Source: a virus (Duplodnaviria > Heunggongvirae > Uroviricota > Caudoviricetes). Taken from it: a DNA stretch of 25,936 nucleotides. A program made the translations under genes and the position numbers. Numbering within the stretch: the first letter of the stretch is position 1; each line of letters opens with the position of its first letter. Positions 1,285-21,747 of this stretch are shown one piece after another. The stretch is from IMG/VR virus record IMGVR_UViG_2778261639_000014, positions 1 through 25,936 of that record. One strand, given 5' to 3'. The notes below the pieces were generated by a model. The model saw nothing but the letters and a program-made list of their open reading frames with translations, made no database searches and had not been told where the DNA came from.

Positions 1285-1301
1285 ATATTTATTAGAGCAA
1301 T
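1285..1301. promoter_or_regulatory. C1 repressor operator-like site
   Basis: ATATTTATTAGAGCAAT on the + strand is the reverse complement of the asymmetric P1 C1 operator consensus ATTGCTCTAATAAATTT with one mismatch. Lies in the divergent region between the rdgC operon and the + strand genes. Confidence 0.6.
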
Positions 1302-13228: not shown

Positions 13229-13738
13229 ATGGGGCACAATAACACTAAGGGAAACCGTAAATTTATTAAGGGCCGCTATACTGCCAACGCGGCCAAAGGC
13301 GAACGACTGGTATCTTCTGAATTCCAGCTCACTTTTGCAGGCCATGAAGATATCAGCGTACTGGTTCGCACGTCGCAAATTCCTGAAATGACCCGCGAGG
13401 ATGTGGAGGACTATGGTCCGAATGGTGTGAAGTTCAACCAGCACGGTCCAATTCGAAACTCTGGGGAAATCCAGGTCCAGTGCGTGGAGACTATCGAAGG
13501 CGATATTCTTCAGTTCATTAAGGATCGCATTGCGGCGAAGGACTATGTTGATATCACGATGGCTGCGACCCCTGAATCCAAATCTTCCGGGGTTAACGCT
13601 GTGACTAAAGCTGCTACAACAATTGAAATGTTGGACTGCAAAATCTACAGTGATGCAATCGACTTTAGTACCGAAGATGTGACTGCCGCTGTGCGCCCGT
13701 CACTTCGTATCGTCTACAACTGGATTGATTGGGATTAA
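13229..13738 (+). CDS. Tail tube protein candidate
   Basis: 169 aa with AAAGGA SD. Last gene of the sheath-containing operon, followed by a strong terminator. Size fits a myovirus tube protein; assigned by size and position only. Confidence 0.45.
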   Translation: MGHNNTKGNRKFIKGRYTANAAKGERLVSSEFQLTFAGHEDISVLVRTSQIPEMTREDVEDYGPNGVKFNQHGPIRNSGEIQVQCVETIEGDILQFIKDRIAAKDYVDITMAATPESKSSGVNAVTKAATTIEMLDCKIYSDAIDFSTEDVTAAVRPSLRIVYNWIDWD

Positions 13739-13757
13739 GAGCCATCCCTTGTATTTT

Positions 13758-13782
13758 AAAGCTCCTTCGGGAGCTTTTTTTA
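13758..13782 (+). terminator. Rho-independent terminator of the late structural operon
   Basis: AAAGCTCC-TTCG-GGAGCTTT hairpin followed by T7, 20 nt after the stop codon. Confidence 0.85.
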
Positions 13783-13909
13783 TAACTATTTTATATAAAA
13801 ATGCATCGATAACATTGTCTGGAGTTTTATGTTAGATTATTAATGTTCTAATAAACTACAATTATTGCGGTAGATGTTTGTGCCTGTACTGTTAAAGGGG
13901 GACTCTAAA

Positions 13910-14506
13910 ATGGCTGTGATTCCAATGTCGTACTCCCCGGGTACTGTCGCTCGTCGATTTTCGATCCTGGACGGAGTTACCATCCAGGGTGTGCTTTACC
14001 AGGTTATATGGGATTCCAAAACCCCATTTGCAGCTGTAATAGAGGCTGCGCCTTCTGTTATCGATGGTGATATGCGGCATAAGGTTGTCGCTACTCTTGA
14101 ACTTCAACGTCGCCCGCAGCTTGAAGGCGTACTGGTAAGGAAGTTCTGGGAGGATAGCGATGTTGGCCAGATTGAAGGTATCGTGGTTGATGGAACTGTC
14201 CGGGATGTCGGTTTAGCTACTTTTGTTTACGAAACCGTAGCCTCAAAAGCTGGTGTTGTTTTGCTCAGTGATAATGAGCAATACGAAGGTGGAAAAGCTC
14301 TTTGGCAACATATCGCCCGTCGCTCTTCCGAGCTAAAAGTGTTTATCCTCGACACCGATGCTGCTCAGTATTACCCGTTTGACGGCGAACGTGTTTGCTA
14401 TGACGGGAAAAGTATTCCTGAATCCGAGATATGGAGTGAACATCCGGATCGAAGTAAGCATGGGGTTGTTCTTGTCGCAGAATCCATAACTGGAAAGGCG
14501 GCATAG
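13910..14506 (+). CDS. Hypothetical protein (orphan gene with its own promoter)
   Basis: Track ORF 13874..14506; ATG 13910 preceded by AAAGGGGGA. 198 aa. Preceded by a ~100-bp AT-rich promoter-like region. No recognisable domain. Confidence 0.55.
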   Translation: MAVIPMSYSPGTVARRFSILDGVTIQGVLYQVIWDSKTPFAAVIEAAPSVIDGDMRHKVVATLELQRRPQLEGVLVRKFWEDSDVGQIEGIVVDGTVRDVGLATFVYETVASKAGVVLLSDNEQYEGGKALWQHIARRSSELKVFILDTDAAQYYPFDGERVCYDGKSIPESEIWSEHPDRSKHGVVLVAESITGKAA

Positions 14507-14688
14507 CAGTAAAAAATTCCTTGCTCCTTAAAAGGGGAGAGGGTTAATCTACGTATGCTAAGCATAGGTATGGCCCCGGTTAATGTTAAGCGTTGTGCGG
14601 GACGCATAATGTTTACTGGGGCTTTCTTCTATCTGCTTTTCGGGGAATGCCTGAAGCAGATAGCCTCAAGCACACCGCAGCGGGTGTA

Positions 14689-14934
14689 TCAATGTCTGGC
14701 TTTTTTTCTATAGAAATCACCTGGAAGGGTGAATATCCACATCAGAAGAAATGTTGCAGCAAACATGATCCCTAATGGCCAGACCGCGCCAAAGAAAATC
14801 CATACTAAGATCTCCTCTGCTCGTTCTTTGCGGTCGATATCGACAAGCATTTTTCGGCTGATCATGTATACACAGAAGCCAATACAAACATATCCTGCAA
14901 AAGCGATCGCTAACTGTAAAAAATCAGATTGCAT
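14689..14934 (-). CDS. Small two-helix membrane protein
   Basis: Track ORF 14689..15015; ATG at 14934 preceded by GAGG. 81 aa with two hydrophobic helices (LQLAIAFAGYVCIGFCVYMI; ILVWIFFGAVWPLGIMFAATFLLMWIF) and a basic C terminus. Confidence 0.5.
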   Translation of the reverse strand: MQSDFLQLAIAFAGYVCIGFCVYMISRKMLVDIDRKERAEEILVWIFFGAVWPLGIMFAATFLLMWIFTLPGDFYRKKARH

Positions 14935-14964
14935 CTCCGACCTCAAACTGAAAACGCCAGGTGA

Positions 14965-14981
14965 CTCCAGATTAGAGCAAT
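14965..14981. promoter_or_regulatory. C1 operator-like site between repL and the small membrane-protein gene
   Basis: Core ATTAGAGCAAT (14971-14981) matches the conserved half of the C1 operator; the upstream half is degenerate. Lies 4 bp below the repL stop and ~35 bp upstream of the membrane-protein start. Confidence 0.45.
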
Positions 14982-14984
14982 CTA

Positions 14985-15830
14985 TCACCCTCTGAATCCT
15001 GCCGGTATACCCCATTGTTCGTTATCTTTATTTTTGGCTAAAACCGCATTAAGAGCTTCGTTTACCGTCATGCAATGCGGCAGATTATCGAAGTTTGATA
15101 CCCCGCCAATATCAGGAGAACGCTTGTTCTTCAGGTAAGCATATTTCCGCGCTGCCGCCTCTACTTTCTGCTTGAACTCATGTTTTTGAGCGCGTTTTTT
15201 GGATAACCGCAGATTGTCAGCCTTTGCTTTTGCCTCAGCGATCCATGAAGTCAATTTTTTGAGTCTGGTCGTTCCGGCACCGCCGGAAACTGATCTTTTT
15301 GTTTTTTTAACTTGTGACTTCTTATTCTTTATTGCCACGTCATCCTGACAGGGGGAGGGGGTATCATTTTGACATGGGGGTGTGGATAAAAAATTAAATA
15401 AAGCCAATGTCTTAGCGAGAACAGCTTTAACCTTGGTTGCCGCTGAAGAGATCTTTAATTTGCTTTCAATCAGCGCATTTTTGGCTTGTTGTGCGAAGGC
15501 CAAAAAGGATGGTGTAAACCGGTACAGGTTAGCGCGACGTTCATGGTGATCGCCGATAACAATCTCTACAGACAGAATTCCTTTGTTTACAGCTTCACGG
15601 AATGCACGAACGACGGTTGATTGGCTATAACCAGTTTCTGCCGCGATCAGGCGGTGAGGCTTGTGAATGAAGTATTCACTAGTTGTTGCCGCGAGATTTG
15701 CACATTGCGACAGGATATGCCCGGCGCTACGGGATAGACCGGAGTGTGTTACAAAGCAGGCCAATTCATAGCCAGAAAAAGTAAAATCGCTCATCGTTAT
15801 ACAGCTCAGGAAAGTGACTTTAGCCAGCAT
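14985..15830 (-). CDS. repL: Lytic replication protein RepL
   Basis: 281 aa from the track start; internal ATG at 15794 is an alternative. Matches P1 RepL as recalled (MSDFTFSGYELACFVTHSGLSRSAGHILSQ). Directly downstream of kilA as in the P1 kilA-repL operon. Confidence 0.8.
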   Translation of the reverse strand: MLAKVTFLSCITMSDFTFSGYELACFVTHSGLSRSAGHILSQCANLAATTSEYFIHKPHRLIAAETGYSQSTVVRAFREAVNKGILSVEIVIGDHHERRANLYRFTPSFLAFAQQAKNALIESKLKISSAATKVKAVLAKTLALFNFLSTPPCQNDTPSPCQDDVAIKNKKSQVKKTKRSVSGGAGTTRLKKLTSWIAEAKAKADNLRLSKKRAQKHEFKQKVEAAARKYAYLKNKRSPDIGGVSNFDNLPHCMTVNEALNAVLAKNKDNEQWGIPAGFRG

Positions 15831-15859: not shown

Positions 15860-16660
15860 TTAGCGCGTTGCCGCGACAGGTACCAGCACACCAGCATCAA
15901 GCAATCGCTTCATCAGCCACTGCTGACCTTTGCCGGTTATACGAGTCGTGAAAGAAATCCTGCTTCCATTGCTTGTATCGATCACGGTTTCTTTAAGGGT
16001 GAAATACCCACGGGATATGTATTCTTGTTTGGGGACGTTCCTGCGTTCACCGGTTGCGATCAGAATTCCGTTATCACGCAACCAGGTGAAGAGATAGTTT
16101 TGGCCCAGGCCGAGCACTTTGGCATAGTTGCCGATTAGAACTCCGCTGGCGGTAGCAACGCGTTCGGCGAATTCGACTTTAGGTGCATCCATAAGCATTT
16201 TTTGCTCCAGCCGTTGCTTTTGCTCTGCCAGGTCGGCAGCCAAACGGAGAGCTTCAGGGAGACTCTGCGGAATAGCAGGTTGTAATCTTCCGGCTCGATA
16301 GTCGATAAATGTCTGGTTTACCTTCAGCCGAAACGCGGGAGAAATCCAGCCTGCGTACTCCACAGCGAGCAATTCATGGGCAAAAGTGCCGCCGCCACGG
16401 CCTTCGAAAGAAACTATGCAATTCTGCATAGTTTCTTTTTCAAGCTCTTCGATGAGCTGTTTGGCTGACAGCGTTCTTAGCCATTGAGCTGGCGCTTTAT
16501 GGGCACCGAGTCCGCTCGCTCTGTGTAGAGCATTAAGGTTGTAACGGCCAGCGCGGTCGGTCGTAATTTCAACACCACAAATAACAGGCAGAGTGGTTGA
16601 AGGATCGACATTTTGATGAAGGTTTGATATATTCATATCCGCATTGAATGTTTGTTGCAT
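15860..16660 (-). CDS. kilA: KilA (KilA-N DNA-binding domain plus antirepressor-type C-terminal domain)
   Basis: 266 aa with GGAGAAAAA SD. C-terminal half (IPQSLPEALRLAADLAEQK ... TGKGQQWL) is clearly paralogous to the C terminus of the upstream ant-like protein. Preceded by a C1 operator. Confidence 0.85.
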   Translation of the reverse strand: MQQTFNADMNISNLHQNVDPSTTLPVICGVEITTDRAGRYNLNALHRASGLGAHKAPAQWLRTLSAKQLIEELEKETMQNCIVSFEGRGGGTFAHELLAVEYAGWISPAFRLKVNQTFIDYRAGRLQPAIPQSLPEALRLAADLAEQKQRLEQKMLMDAPKVEFAERVATASGVLIGNYAKVLGLGQNYLFTWLRDNGILIATGERRNVPKQEYISRGYFTLKETVIDTSNGSRISFTTRITGKGQQWLMKRLLDAGVLVPVAATR

Positions 16661-16729: not shown

Positions 16730-16746
16730 AAATTTATTAGAGCAAA
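16730..16746. promoter_or_regulatory. C1 operator (P1 Op53-like) controlling kilA-repL
   Basis: AAATTTATTAGAGCAAA is the reverse complement of the C1 operator consensus with one mismatch, ~70 bp upstream of the kilA start. Confidence 0.75.
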
Positions 16747-16823: not shown

Positions 16824-17867
16824 TTAACCTATTGCTACTGGTTTTAACAAACCAGCATCAAGTAGCTTGCGAGTTAACCACTGCTGGCCTTTACCCGTTA
16901 ATTGGGGCGTCAGCCGTATCTGGTAGCCATTTTCATCATCCAGCACCACTTCTTTCACCGTGAAATATCCGGCGTTGATGTACTGCTGGCGCGGTACGTT
17001 TTTGCGCGCACCAAAAGCCATGAGAATGCCGTTCTGGCGCAACCATGAGAAAAGGGCGTTTTGCTTAAGTCCAACGACCTTTGCAAAGTTCCCGATCAGG
17101 ATTCCATTAGCCGCTGATACCCGGTCGGCAAAATCGACTTTAGGGGCTGCGGCCACCAGCTGTTGTTCCAACTGCATTTTCTGTTCTGCCAACTCGGCAG
17201 CCAGGCGTAGAGCTTCTGGTAATGTTTGGGGGATCGATGGGGTAGGTGAGTTTGCCTGCTGCAATTCTTCCAGTTTGTCGATCAGCGAACGGCGGACCGC
17301 TTTCGATTCGCGCGCGGCGACTCGCAGGGCTTGTTTGTAGGTCATGGTTATGACCTCAAAAGAGCGCCCGGCCCTTGTGCCATGGGATTTTACGAAAGTT
17401 TCGTAAAATTCCCCATCAAGTTCATCCTTAATTCTATTGAGAAAATCGTTATTGCGGATCTCATTTTCCCTACATAGCTTGCGCGCATCATTAACCATCT
17501 TTAACAGCGTCTGGCTGTCGATTGTGTCTCCAGTGTTGGAGATAACATTCACAGCTGGTGATGGCGTAGCTGAAGCAACAGATGCTGGTTTTTTAACATT
17601 CAAATTATTACTGGTCATTCTATGTGCCTCCTTTCTCATTTCTGCTGCCACCGTTGCGTAACGTAGACGTCCTTGTTCAATCAAATAATCCCTGATCTCG
17701 GCTATCAGTAGCCTGTTGATCACAGCCTTATCTGTTCGGGTATAAAAACGCCTGGTTATCATGAAATAGTTGGCAATTGCGCCGGGGATCTCCCGTGTCG
17801 GCATACAGGCAGTATGCAGGGCGATCGCTTCGGCTATTTCATTACGGGTGACGAGAGGTTTTTTCAT
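16824..17867 (-). CDS. ant: Antirepressor (P1 Ant-like)
   Basis: 347 aa. Central Rha/AntA-like region and C-terminal antirepressor domain shared with KilA. Preceded by an overlapping 73-aa ORF and a C1 operator, as in the P1 immI operon. Confidence 0.8.
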   Translation of the reverse strand: MKKPLVTRNEIAEAIALHTACMPTREIPGAIANYFMITRRFYTRTDKAVINRLLIAEIRDYLIEQGRLRYATVAAEMRKEAHRMTSNNLNVKKPASVASATPSPAVNVISNTGDTIDSQTLLKMVNDARKLCRENEIRNNDFLNRIKDELDGEFYETFVKSHGTRAGRSFEVITMTYKQALRVAARESKAVRRSLIDKLEELQQANSPTPSIPQTLPEALRLAAELAEQKMQLEQQLVAAAPKVDFADRVSAANGILIGNFAKVVGLKQNALFSWLRQNGILMAFGARKNVPRQQYINAGYFTVKEVVLDDENGYQIRLTPQLTGKGQQWLTRKLLDAGLLKPVAIG

Positions 17868-18085: not shown

Positions 18086-18270
18086 AATGGCAGCCTCCTT
18101 TTGCTAATTTAAGGAGCTACCGCGTGAGGTTCCAATCTCAATGGCGGTAGCACTGACTGGGTTGGAACTACCGGCGCAAAAGGGAACCGGCCTGCCTTTC
18201 GGCAGCCCAGCCAGCACTACCATTGATCTCGGAGCTATGTGCTACGTATGGCTGTGCGATGGCATGACAC

Positions 18271-18410
18271 AAAAAAAGACGCTTTTGGCGTCTGTGTCGC
18301 CTTTTGCATTATCCGGGGTCTCAATCCCGGCACCCGTTTTAATGAGGTGCCTGATAAGCATAAACCGAAAATGCCTCAAGGCGCAAGAGGTCAGGCTCAA
18401 TGTAACATCG
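18271..18410 (-). ncRNA. c4-like antisense regulatory RNA region (immI leader)
   Basis: Between the operator/promoter at ~18415-18441 and icd: a T-arm-like stem-loop CCGGG-ATTGAGA-CCCGG (~18311-18336) and a GACGC-TTTTG-GCGTC hairpin followed by U7 on the minus strand (~18271-18292). Fits the position of P1 c4. Boundaries not determined. Confidence 0.3.
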
Positions 18411-18424
18411 GTAGTTAAAAAACA

Positions 18425-18441
18425 CAATTCATTAGAGCAAA
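18425..18441. promoter_or_regulatory. C1 operator-like site (P1 Op51-like) upstream of the immI-like module
   Basis: Core ATTAGAGCAA at 18431-18440 within a 17-mer with ~3 mismatches to the consensus. Lies 4 bp from the pacB stop codon. Confidence 0.6.
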
Positions 18442-21730: not shown

Positions 21731-21747
21731 CAATACATTAGAGCAAT
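21731..21747. promoter_or_regulatory. C1 operator-like site upstream of lpa
   Basis: 17-mer with core TTAGAGCAAT (21738-21747). Adjacent to the stop codon of the upstream gene and ~70-85 bp from the lpa start. Confidence 0.55.

What the first reader, a model, noticed from the sequence alone, without database searches (positions are those of the whole stretch)
13783..14981. Orphan island between the tail operon and repL: own-promoter gene, palindromic non-coding block, operator-gated membrane protein
A 198-aa protein of unknown function has a private AT-rich promoter. It is followed by ~180 bp of non-coding DNA with a perfect 13-bp palindrome TATGCTAAGCATA (~14554-14566) and a 10-bp inverted repeat CTATCTGCTT/AAGCAGATAG with a 15-bp spacer (~14629-14663). 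Convergent to it is an 81-aa two-helix membrane protein preceded by a C1-operator core. The arrangement suggests a lysogeny-expressed gene plus a repressor-gated membrane effector with a protein-binding site between them, for example an exclusion or abortive module. This is my second candidate for an undescribed system.
Basis: partly seen in the sequence, partly recalled or inferred. Interest (0 to 1): 0.6.

Follow-up and report, generated by a model that had tools for sequence, protein, structure and literature searches.

The report
Toxin-less hok/sok relic in P1 variable slot
The "orphan island" is the known hypervariable slot between bplB and repL of a P1-like phage-plasmid, holding three separable pieces (an acetyltransferase-fold gene related to P1 pmgF, a hok/sok toxin-antitoxin locus that has lost its toxin gene, and a small membrane-protein gene behind a C1 operator), not one new system.

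Summary
The sequence features are real and at the stated coordinates. The interpretation mostly fails.

- **The 182-bp "non-coding palindromic block".** It matches the Rfam hok/sok leader model RF01794 at 14502-14675 on the minus strand (72.9 bits, cut-off 59). Both palindromes are RNA stems of that model, not protein-binding sites.
- **The missing toxin.** Relatives with an intact locus score 114.9 bits and encode a 51-aa Hok. Here the hok ORF is replaced, from its ATG, by the 3' end of the convergent 198-aa gene. No Hok ORF exists in the window or in a complete close relative.
- **The 198-aa protein.** It is a conserved, divergent GNAT-fold protein. Its first 66 residues are homologous to P1 PmgF, which lies at the same position.
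- **The 81-aa protein.** It is a real two-helix membrane protein confined to P1-like elements. It sits behind the 11-bp core of P1's annotated C1 operator Orlf.
- **Modularity.** Relatives carry these pieces in different combinations, and the slot is a published variable region.

Verdict: a mosaic of known kinds, of modest interest. The substrate of the acetyltransferase-fold protein and the role of the membrane protein remain unknown.

The parts
13758..13777 (+). bplB terminator hairpin (AAAGCTCC-TTCG-GGAGCTTT followed by a T run). It marks the left end of the variable slot, because homology to P1 and to all slot variants ends at 13780.
13781..13909 (+). AT-rich leader of the 198-aa gene (28.7% GC). 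It holds only moderate sigma-70-like sites, for example ATAACA-18-TAGATT with an upstream TG and TAGATT-18-TACAAT, each 8/12. A weak C1-operator-like site lies at 13842-13858 with 4 mismatches, which is chance level.
13910..14506 (+). 198-aa divergent GNAT-fold protein, a long homologue of P1 PmgF. It carries the motif R98-D-V-G101-L-A103 between beta4 and alpha3.
14502..14675 (-). hok mRNA leader remnant (Rfam RF01794, 72.9 bits). The model's terminal AUG, which is the hok start, is 14504-14502 and overlaps the TAG stop of the 198-aa gene on the other strand. The hok ORF and its 3' region are absent.
14629..14663 (-). It is the long 5' hairpin of the hok leader (model positions about 11-49).
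14554..14566 (-). It lies in the third hairpin of the leader model and contains the mok-type start codon (ATG 14565-14563). In the intact relative this ATG opens a 68-codon ORF that overlaps hok in another frame.
14521..14630 (+). Candidate Sok antisense RNA gene. Its parts are a -35-like TTGCTC (14521-14526), a -10-like TAATCT (14545-14550), a long hairpin (14572-14623) and a U-rich tail TTTCTTCT (14623-30). It is co-oriented with the 198-aa gene and probably also serves as that gene's terminator.
14689..14934 (-). 81-aa two-helix membrane protein (phrog_3772), confined to P1-like elements. It is mosaic, with two N-terminal alleles joined at 14804/05 to an identical C-terminal half.
14964..14980 (-). 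C1 operator-like site ATTGCTCTAATCTGGAG. Its first 11 nt are identical to P1 Orlf (Op55). Homology to P1 ends at 14971, inside the site. A promoter-like TTCAGA-16-TAATCT (14996-14969) has its -10 inside the operator core.

Best explanation
The interval is the accessory-gene slot of P1-like phage-plasmids between the tail gene bplB and the lytic replication gene repL. Reference P1 carries pmgF, rlfB and rlfA in the same slot. In this window the slot holds three independent modules.

1. A self-contained cassette encoding a 198-aa GNAT-fold protein.
- Shown: it is a real, selected gene with a GNAT fold, and its N-terminus is homologous to PmgF.
- Inferred: it is an acyl-CoA-dependent acyltransferase acting on a host or phage target. 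It is dispensable for plaque formation, as P1 pmgF is. It terminates at the Sok hairpin.

2. A decapitated hok/sok type I toxin-antitoxin locus.
- Shown: the hok mRNA leader, the mok start and the antisense Sok region survive. The Hok toxin ORF and its 3' region have been replaced by the inverted 198-aa gene.
- Shown: the promoter-like sites of both hok and sok are weaker than in intact relatives.
- Inferred: it can no longer kill plasmid-free segregants and is a decaying recombination scar. Its surviving hairpin is retained mainly as a terminator.

3. An 81-aa two-helix membrane protein transcribed away from repL.
- Shown: a real gene lies behind the core of the C1 operator Orlf.
- Inferred: it is repressed by C1 in the lysogen and made on induction, either from a promoter overlapping the operator or by read-through from kilA-repL. 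Its activity is unknown.

The palindromes are RNA stems, not protein-binding sites, and the modules do not form one system.
For: Slot identity:
- Homology to P1 AF234172 stops at 13780 and resumes at 14971. P1 has pmgF(+), rlfB/rlfA(-) and operator Orlf in between.
- rlfA-rlfB-pmgF is a published variable region of P1-like phage-plasmids (PMC9603915). PMC6906374 describes '3 orfs between repL and bplB substitute rlfA-rlfB-pmgF'.
- PLSDB plasmid counts for the three alleles are 481 records for hok-intact, 125 for the 198-aa gene and 101 for the P1 type.

hok/sok relic:
- RF01794 matches at 14502-14675(-) with 72.9 bits against a cut-off of 59, E 1e-14.
- Intact relatives score 114.9 bits and encode a 51-aa Hok plus an overlapping 68-codon mok-like ORF.
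- The alignment shows the carriers of the 198-aa gene diverging after GTAGATTA and reaching GCTATG. There the hok ATG is followed by the antisense of the 198-aa gene.
- tblastn finds no Hok ORF in the window (best E 0.64). It also finds none in the complete 102-kb relative pLH10-b-1-B.
- The hok -10 is TACAAT in intact loci and TACACC here. The sok -35 is TTGACC in intact loci and TTGCTC here.
- The palindrome is mutated in pLH10-b-1-B. The SJ46 and L019-type copies fall below the Rfam threshold.
- The Sok-side hairpin has dG -33.3 kcal/mol and z -4.5. L019-type variants keep homology exactly to 14630, the end of its U tract.

GNAT-fold gene:
- Against a chromosomal homologue there are 85 synonymous and 25 non-synonymous codon differences, with differences by codon position of 20/8/101.
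- The AlphaFold model has pLDDT 90.5.
- Foldseek hits phage proteins named 'NAT_SF domain containing protein' at probability 1.0.
- One cluster of homologues is named N-acetyltransferase by NCBI.
- PmgF homology is 43% identity over 65 aa, E 5e-16. phrog_7349 matches at E 5e-11.
- P1 pmgF, rlfA and rlfB are non-essential by CRISPRi (PMC10695390).

Membrane gene:
- 19 protein clusters were found, all from Escherichia or phage SJ46.
- Two N-terminal alleles both keep a hydrophobic helix and the reading frame.

Modularity.
Against: - Nothing here measures transcription, so both promoter assignments and C1 control are inferred from position and consensus.
- The operator matches the 17-bp consensus at only 11 positions, although P1's own Orlf is only slightly better at 12 of 17.
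- The Sok -10, transcript and terminator are intact. All 8 viral contigs carrying the junction motif keep the sok part next to the 198-aa gene. The sok part could therefore still be selected for an RNA function rather than being a mere scar.
- The Pfam GNAT match of the 198-aa protein is below threshold (14.2 against 20.7 bits). No cofactor or substrate has been shown.
- Convergent transcription could couple the modules in ways not visible in sequence. It would run from repL, the 81-aa gene or the hok leader into the 198-aa gene.
Confidence: 0.8

Rival explanations
1. Orphan-antitoxin (anti-addiction) model. The toxin-less locus is kept because Sok RNA is still made. It would neutralise the hok mRNA of sibling P1-like plasmids that carry the intact hok/sok at the same slot. 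This phage-plasmid could then displace them, or coexist with them, without post-segregational killing of the host.
For: - The sok -10 (TAATCT), the transcript and the hairpin plus U-tract terminator are intact.
- The sok part is retained next to the 198-aa gene in all 8 viral contigs with the junction. This includes those that lost the hok promoter and 5' hairpin.
- The intact allele is the commonest in related plasmids (481 records), so there are many potential competitors.
- The Sok 5' region differs from that of the intact allele by about one base.
Against: - The sok -35 is degraded relative to intact loci, from TTGACC to TTGCTC.
- The target and palindrome region is mutated in the closest complete relative.
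- Stem substitutions separate this allele from the intact one.
- Retention up to 14630 is equally explained by the hairpin serving as terminator of the 198-aa gene.
- There are no expression data.
Confidence: 0.1
2. The 198-aa gene, the palindromic block and the operator-gated membrane protein form one exclusion or abortive-infection module, with a protein binding the palindromes.
For: - The three parts are adjacent in at least 83 plasmids that cover at least 80% of 13600-15100.
- The slot is a hot spot for accessory genes.
- Small membrane proteins are common effectors (general knowledge).
Against: - The palindromes are accounted for by a curated RNA model.
- The parts occur separately in relatives.
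- There are no PADLOC hits.
- The 198-aa gene occurs alone in unrelated contexts: at the edge of an AlpA/DUF3987 island, inside the dar operon of a distant P1-like phage, and next to a bacteriocin-export cluster.
Confidence: 0.05
3. The hok leader has been re-used as a regulator of the 198-aa gene. Transcription from the hok promoter, or read-through from the 81-aa gene, runs antisense into the 3' end of the 198-aa gene. Sok, or the Sok sequence carried in the 3' UTR of the 198-aa mRNA, modulates that antisense RNA.
For: - The hok ATG abuts the stop codon of the 198-aa gene, so the leader now heads an antisense transcript.
- No minus-strand terminator lies between 14689 and 14506.
- The junction is the same in every contig that carries its 26-nt motif.
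Against: - The hok -10 is destroyed in this lineage: TACACC lacks the final T.
- The 53-codon antisense ORF is not conserved in the chromosomal homologue.
- No data show antisense regulation.
Confidence: 0.05

Closest known systems
hok/sok (parB of plasmid R1) type I toxin-antitoxin family; Rfam RF01794 and Hok/Gef toxins
   Same: The leader RNA matches the covariance model end to end, with the same hairpins. A mok-type start codon is present, as is an antisense Sok-like unit with a -10 and a hairpin/U-tract terminator. Sibling plasmids carry the intact locus at the same place, annotated HokD or Hok/Gef.
   Different: There is no toxin ORF and no 3' region, because both are replaced by an inverted GNAT-fold gene. 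The bit score is lower (72.9 against 114.9). The promoter-like sites of hok and sok are weakened. It therefore cannot work as a killer module. From general knowledge, it resembles the decayed chromosomal hok loci described for E. coli.
P1 PmgF (putative morphogenetic function; AAQ14025), phrog_7349
   Same: It has the same position and orientation immediately after bplB. Identity is 43% over residues 4-66, E 5e-16.
   Different: PmgF is 98 aa and lacks the C-terminal GNAT core (beta4-alpha3-beta5-alpha4 and the RxxGxA motif). No morphogenetic role has been shown, and P1 pmgF is non-essential.
GNAT (Gcn5-related N-acetyltransferase) superfamily, including phage examples Mom of Mu and Rac of phiKMV
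P1 rlfA/rlfB with operator Orlf (Op55)
   Same: The gene has the same location directly downstream of repL and the same orientation. The same 11-bp operator core precedes it.
   Different: There is no sequence similarity between the 81-aa protein and RlfA or RlfB. The 3' six bases of the operator and everything beyond them are replaced.

Membership tests
hok/sok type I toxin-antitoxin | hok mRNA leader/Sok region matching Rfam RF01794 at or above the gathering score | tested here: met
   72.9 bits against a cut-off of 59, covering the full model 1-157 at 14502-14675(-). Intact relatives score 114.9 bits.
hok/sok type I toxin-antitoxin | Hok/Gef-family toxin ORF of about 50 aa downstream of the leader | tested here: not met
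   tblastn of two Hok proteins against the window gave a best E of 0.64. The same query gives E 1e-30 in L003 and L011. No hit was found in the complete relative plasmid.
hok/sok type I toxin-antitoxin | mok-type ORF starting in the Sok target region and overlapping hok | tested here: inconclusive
   The start codon is kept (14565-14563), but the ORF now reads into the antisense of the 198-aa gene. In L003 it is a 68-codon ORF overlapping hok.
hok/sok type I toxin-antitoxin | Antisense Sok RNA with its own promoter and terminator | tested here: inconclusive
   The -10 TAATCT and the hairpin plus U tract are present (dG -33.3, z -4.5). The -35 is weakened to TTGCTC, for 6/12 in total. No expression data exist.
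hok/sok type I toxin-antitoxin | 3' region of the hok mRNA (the fold-back element of the R1 paradigm) | tested here: not met
   The 264 bp that hold hok and its 3' region in L003 (2682-2945) have no counterpart in the window.
hok/sok type I toxin-antitoxin | Post-segregational killing | not testable with these tools
   This needs plasmid-loss assays.
GNAT acyltransferase superfamily | GNAT fold | tested here: met
GNAT acyltransferase superfamily | Pfam Acetyltransf_1 (PF00583) at or above the gathering score | tested here: not met
   14.2 bits against 20.7, E 0.054. Only 4 of 51 family members match at E<=0.01.
GNAT acyltransferase superfamily | Motif A, (Q/R)-x-x-G-x-(G/A), between beta4 and alpha3 | tested here: met
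   R98-D-V-G101-L-A103. R98, G101, L102 and A103 are invariant among close homologues. GLA appears in the consensus of the wide family. The motif position was read from the secondary structure.
GNAT acyltransferase superfamily | Acyl-CoA-dependent transfer activity | not testable with these tools
   This needs biochemistry.
P1 PmgF | Sequence homology and the same locus | tested here: met
   43% identity over 65 aa, E 5e-16. tblastn hits pmgF of P1, P7 and JL22. Both genes directly follow bplB.
P1 PmgF | Same length and architecture (about 98 aa) | tested here: not met
   198 aa against 98 aa. Residues 67-198 have no counterpart in P1.
C1-controlled operator of P1 | Match to the 17-bp asymmetric consensus ATTGCTCTAATAAATTT | tested here: inconclusive
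   The site is ATTGCTCTAATCTGGAG, with 11 of 17 matches (the contiguous 5' core). P1's annotated Orlf, ATTGCTCTAATTATAAC, matches 12 of 17.
C1-controlled operator of P1 | Binding of C1 and repression of the downstream gene | not testable with these tools
   This needs EMSA or reporter assays.
P1 RlfA/RlfB | Sequence similarity of the gene downstream of repL | tested here: not met
   tblastn of the 81-aa protein against the P1 locus gave no hit.
Known anti-phage defence systems (PADLOC-DB 2.0) | Match of either protein to a defence-system model | tested here: not met
   No family at E<=0.1 for either protein.

The most novel reading that the evidence does not exclude
Two unexcluded readings remain.

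(a) The 198-aa GNAT-fold protein is a phage counter-defence or host-modifying acyltransferase. A 69%-identical homologue sits co-oriented inside the darA anti-restriction operon of a distant P1-like phage. Others sit at the edges of satellite-like islands and in a jumbo phage. P1's pmgF would then be the stump of this gene.

(b) The toxin-less hok/sok is kept as an orphan Sok that disarms the intact hok/sok of competing P1-like plasmids.
Probability: 0.2. Interest if true: 0.55.

Novelty: new variant of a known kind. Interest (0 to 1): 0.25.

Why it matters
- **Annotation.** It corrects the reading of a common allele of P1-like phage-plasmids (125 PLSDB records). The "intergenic palindromes" are a hok/sok relic, and the "hypothetical protein" is a GNAT-fold relative of pmgF.
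- **How the hot spot evolves.** It shows gene-for-gene replacement at ORF boundaries, leaving regulatory RNA scars.
- **Two cheap experiments.** One asks whether an orphan Sok protects against sibling plasmids' Hok. The other asks what the phage GNAT-fold protein acylates.

It does not reveal a new kind of system.

Tried and rejected
- **Library scans.** Pfam, NCBIfam, PHROGs and PADLOC scans of both proteins gave only PHROGs of unknown function and sub-threshold hits. B12D, PRA1 and ElxI1 for the 81-aa protein were rejected as hydrophobic noise.
- **PDB sequence searches.** A single-sequence search and a profile search of the 198-aa family both found nothing meaningful.
- **First structure model.** The model built from 16 close homologues was mediocre (pLDDT 68.7). 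It was replaced by a 51-sequence model. The afdb50 fold library was unavailable.
- **Partner protein.** The 545-aa neighbour in the E. coli island has no Pfam or PADLOC match.
- **Intact hok allele with this window's SD-hairpin.** All 8 viral contigs with the 26-nt motif carry the same junction to the 198-aa gene, so no intact parent allele was found.
- **The 53-codon ORF behind the hok ATG.** Rejected as a gene. It is hydrophilic, antisense to a conserved gene, and closed after 5 codons in the chromosomal homologue.
- **Minus-strand promoter-like TTAACA-17-TATGCT inside the leader**. This single hit is below the shuffle expectation of 2.8.
- **C1-operator-like site at 13842-13858.** It has 4 mismatches, and about 0.6 such sites are expected by chance in the window (my arithmetic).
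- **Literature search on orphan sok.** It failed on term syntax and was not repeated.
Full report
**What the window is.** The window is from a P1-like phage-plasmid (Punavirus).
- Around the finding lie bplB (13229-13738, +), repL (14985-15830, -) and kilA (15860-16660, -).
- Reference P1 (AF234172) is about 98% identical up to 13780 and again from 14971.
- Between those points P1 carries pmgF (+) and the convergent rlfB and rlfA (-). The C1 operator Orlf (former Op55) lies just downstream of repL.
- The finding therefore occupies the pmgF-rlfB-rlfA slot.
- This slot is one of eight published hypervariable regions of P1-like phage-plasmids (PMC9603915).
- A substitution by "3 orfs between repL and bplB" has been recorded descriptively (PMC6906374).

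**Check of the observation.** Everything described is present.
- The 198-aa ORF is 13910-14506 (+). The 81-aa ORF is 14934-14689 (-).
- The palindrome TATGCTAAGCATA is at 14554-14566. It has 6-bp arms around a central base.
- The inverted repeat is CTATCTGCTT (14629-14638) and AAGCAGATAG (14654-14663).
- The operator core ATTGCTCTAAT is at 14980-14970 on the minus strand.
- The stretch upstream of the 198-aa ORF is 28.7% GC and follows the bplB terminator hairpin. It has no sigma-70 match better than 8/12.

**The palindromic block is a hok/sok leader.**
- Rfam's covariance model RF01794 (sok) matches 14502-14675 on the minus strand over its full length. The score is 72.9 bits against a gathering score of 59.
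- The 10-bp inverted repeat is the stem of the model's long first hairpin.
- The 13-bp palindrome lies in the third hairpin and contains an ATG (14565-14563).
- Many relatives lack the 198-aa gene, for example MH422554 (L003) and CP057856 (L011). In them the same leader scores 114.9 bits.
- In those relatives the leader is followed by a 51-aa Hok protein, MKQQKAMLIALIVICLTVIVTALVTRKDLCEVRIRTGQTEVTVFTAYESER, which PGAP names HokD or Hok/Gef.
- The ATG in the palindrome opens a 68-codon ORF that overlaps hok in another frame. This is the classical mok arrangement.

**The toxin is gone.**
- In carriers of the 198-aa gene, the alignment runs through a hairpin plus CAAGGA (the hok Shine-Dalgarno region) to GCTATG.
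- After that comes the reverse complement of the 198-aa gene's 3' end.
- The hok ATG (14504-14502) overlaps that gene's TAG stop codon (14504-14506).
- tblastn finds no Hok-like ORF in the window (best E 0.64 against 1e-30 in relatives).
- It also finds none anywhere in a complete relative, pLH10-b-1-B, whose shared segments are 96-98% identical to the window.
- The DNA that holds hok and its 3' region in L003 (264 bp) has no counterpart here.

**Signs of decay.**
- Intact loci have a hok promoter-like TAGAAA-16-TACAAT (9/12) and a sok promoter-like TTGACC-18-TAATCT (8/12).
- In this window the hok -10 reads TACACC and the sok -35 reads TTGCTC.
- The palindrome is mutated in pLH10-b-1-B.
- The SJ46 copy and the L019-type copies do not reach the Rfam threshold.

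**What remains intact on the plus strand.**
- The sok -10 is preserved.
- A strong hairpin (14572-14623; dG -33.3 kcal/mol, z -4.5) is followed by TTTCTTCT.
- This unit is co-oriented with the 198-aa gene.
- In L019-type relatives, homology to the window stops exactly at 14630, the end of that U tract.
- My inference is that the hairpin now serves as the terminator of the 198-aa gene. That would explain why this part of the relic travels with the gene.

**The 198-aa protein.**
- It is a real gene. Against an 87%-identical chromosomal homologue, 85 differing codons are synonymous and 25 are not. Differences fall 20/8/101 on codon positions 1, 2 and 3.
- DNA homology to that copy is confined to the ORF.
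- The family has 348 clusters at E<=0.001 in the 1.84-billion-protein library, nearly all about 200 aa.
- With a 51-sequence alignment the AlphaFold model reaches pLDDT 90.5.
- Foldseek hits phage proteins named "NAT_SF domain containing protein".
- R98-D-V-G101-L-A103 fits GNAT motif A at the beta4-alpha3 junction.
- Pfam's GNAT model is only weakly matched.
- Residues 4-66 are 43% identical to P1 PmgF (98 aa, E 5e-16), which lies at the same place.
- P1's PmgF thus corresponds to the N-terminal third and lacks the catalytic core.
- P1 pmgF, rlfA and rlfB are non-essential by CRISPRi (PMC10695390).
- Homologues also occur in several other settings. One is at the edge of an AlpA/DUF3987 island in E. 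coli chromosomes. Another is beside a bacteriocin-type export cluster.
- Others are in a Ralstonia jumbo phage and, co-oriented, between a ddrA-like gene and ddrB in the darA operon of a distant P1-like phage.
- The substrate is unknown. A host- or defence-directed acylation is my best guess and is marked as inference.

**The 81-aa protein.**
- It has two hydrophobic segments and belongs to phrog_3772 of unknown function.
- It occurs only in P1-like elements (19 clusters).
- There are two alleles of the N-terminal half, about 47% identical overall. They are joined at 14804/05 to an identical C-terminal half.
- Both alleles keep the frame and a hydrophobic helix, which argues for a translated gene.
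- It has no similarity to RlfA or RlfB.
- The site before it, ATTGCTCTAATCTGGAG, shares the 11-nt core with P1 Orlf.
- The P1 homology breakpoint (14971) lies inside the operator.
- A promoter-like TTCAGA-16-TAATCT has its -10 inside the core.
- C1 control is therefore plausible but not shown. Read-through from kilA-repL is an alternative source of transcription.

**One system or a mosaic?** The evidence favours a mosaic.
- In PLSDB the intact hok allele is in 481 records, the 198-aa gene in 125 and the P1-type allele in 101.
- Some relatives have hok plus the 81-aa gene without the 198-aa gene.
- Others have the 198-aa gene plus the sok part, with a ParA-like ATPase and a 123-aa ORF in place of the 81-aa gene.
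- Others add an Ail/Lom or extra RepL-like gene.
- Neither protein matches a PADLOC defence model.
- The parts therefore recombine independently, which argues against a single exclusion or abortive module.

**Comparison with what is known, and verdict.**
- The block works like, and descends from, hok/sok. It fails the defining test of having a toxin, so it is a relic or at most an orphan antitoxin.
- The 198-aa protein is a divergent GNAT-fold protein and a long relative of PmgF.
- The operator is the Orlf core.
- I rate the whole as a new variant of known kinds, with low to moderate interest (0.25).
- Two readings remain open: an anti-addiction role for the orphan Sok, and a counter-defence role for the GNAT-fold protein.

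Noticed in passing
window 18140-18227 (-) and 18272-18350 (-): Rfam hits to C4 antisense RNA (76.7 bits) and isrK (59 bits). This is the immI region of a P1-like phage.
   Followed up: no
window 16730-16746 (-), 1285-1301 (-), 18425-18441 (-), 21731-21747 (-): These are matches to the 17-bp C1 operator consensus, with 1, 1, 3 and 3 mismatches. The one at 16730 lies just upstream of kilA, like P1 Op53.
   Followed up: no
window 13842-13858 (+): A C1-operator-like AATGTTCTAATAAACTA (4 mismatches) lies in the AT-rich leader of the 198-aa gene. About 0.6 such sites are expected by chance in the window.
   Followed up: partly
L019 5722-7474 (IMG/VR UViG_2630968766_000004) and similar loci L022, L023, L026: In these P1-like contigs, window 14631-14893 is replaced by a 351-aa ParA/MinD-like ATPase and a convergent 123-aa ORF. 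The replaced stretch holds the hok 5' hairpin and promoter and most of the 81-aa gene. This is another cargo allele of the same slot.
   Followed up: partly
L016 4391-7118 (an 89.9-kb metagenomic P1-like contig): A 69%-identical homologue of the 198-aa protein sits co-oriented between a ddrA-like ORF and a ddrB-ParB gene. It lies downstream of lydB and two DarA_N genes, so it is inside the anti-restriction (dar) operon.
   Followed up: partly
L005 6001-8321 (E. coli chromosome next to proA and a tRNA): An 87%-identical homologue lies at the edge of an AlpA/DUF3987 (satellite-like) island. It is convergent with a 545-aa protein that has no Pfam or PADLOC match. The same gene pair plus island is found at three different chromosomal sites.
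   Followed up: partly
L002 4649-5353 (P1 rlfA): In plasmids carrying the P1-type allele, PGAP annotates a DUF3800 domain-containing protein under this slot (presumably rlfA) and, in some records, an 'oxidoreductase' (presumably rlfB). The 'replication-linked' label may deserve a second look.
   Followed up: no
window 15989-16258 vs 16950-17219: The two stretches are about 66% similar at the DNA level, seen indirectly through shared matches in relatives. This probably reflects the related KilA/Ant antirepressor domains.
   Followed up: no
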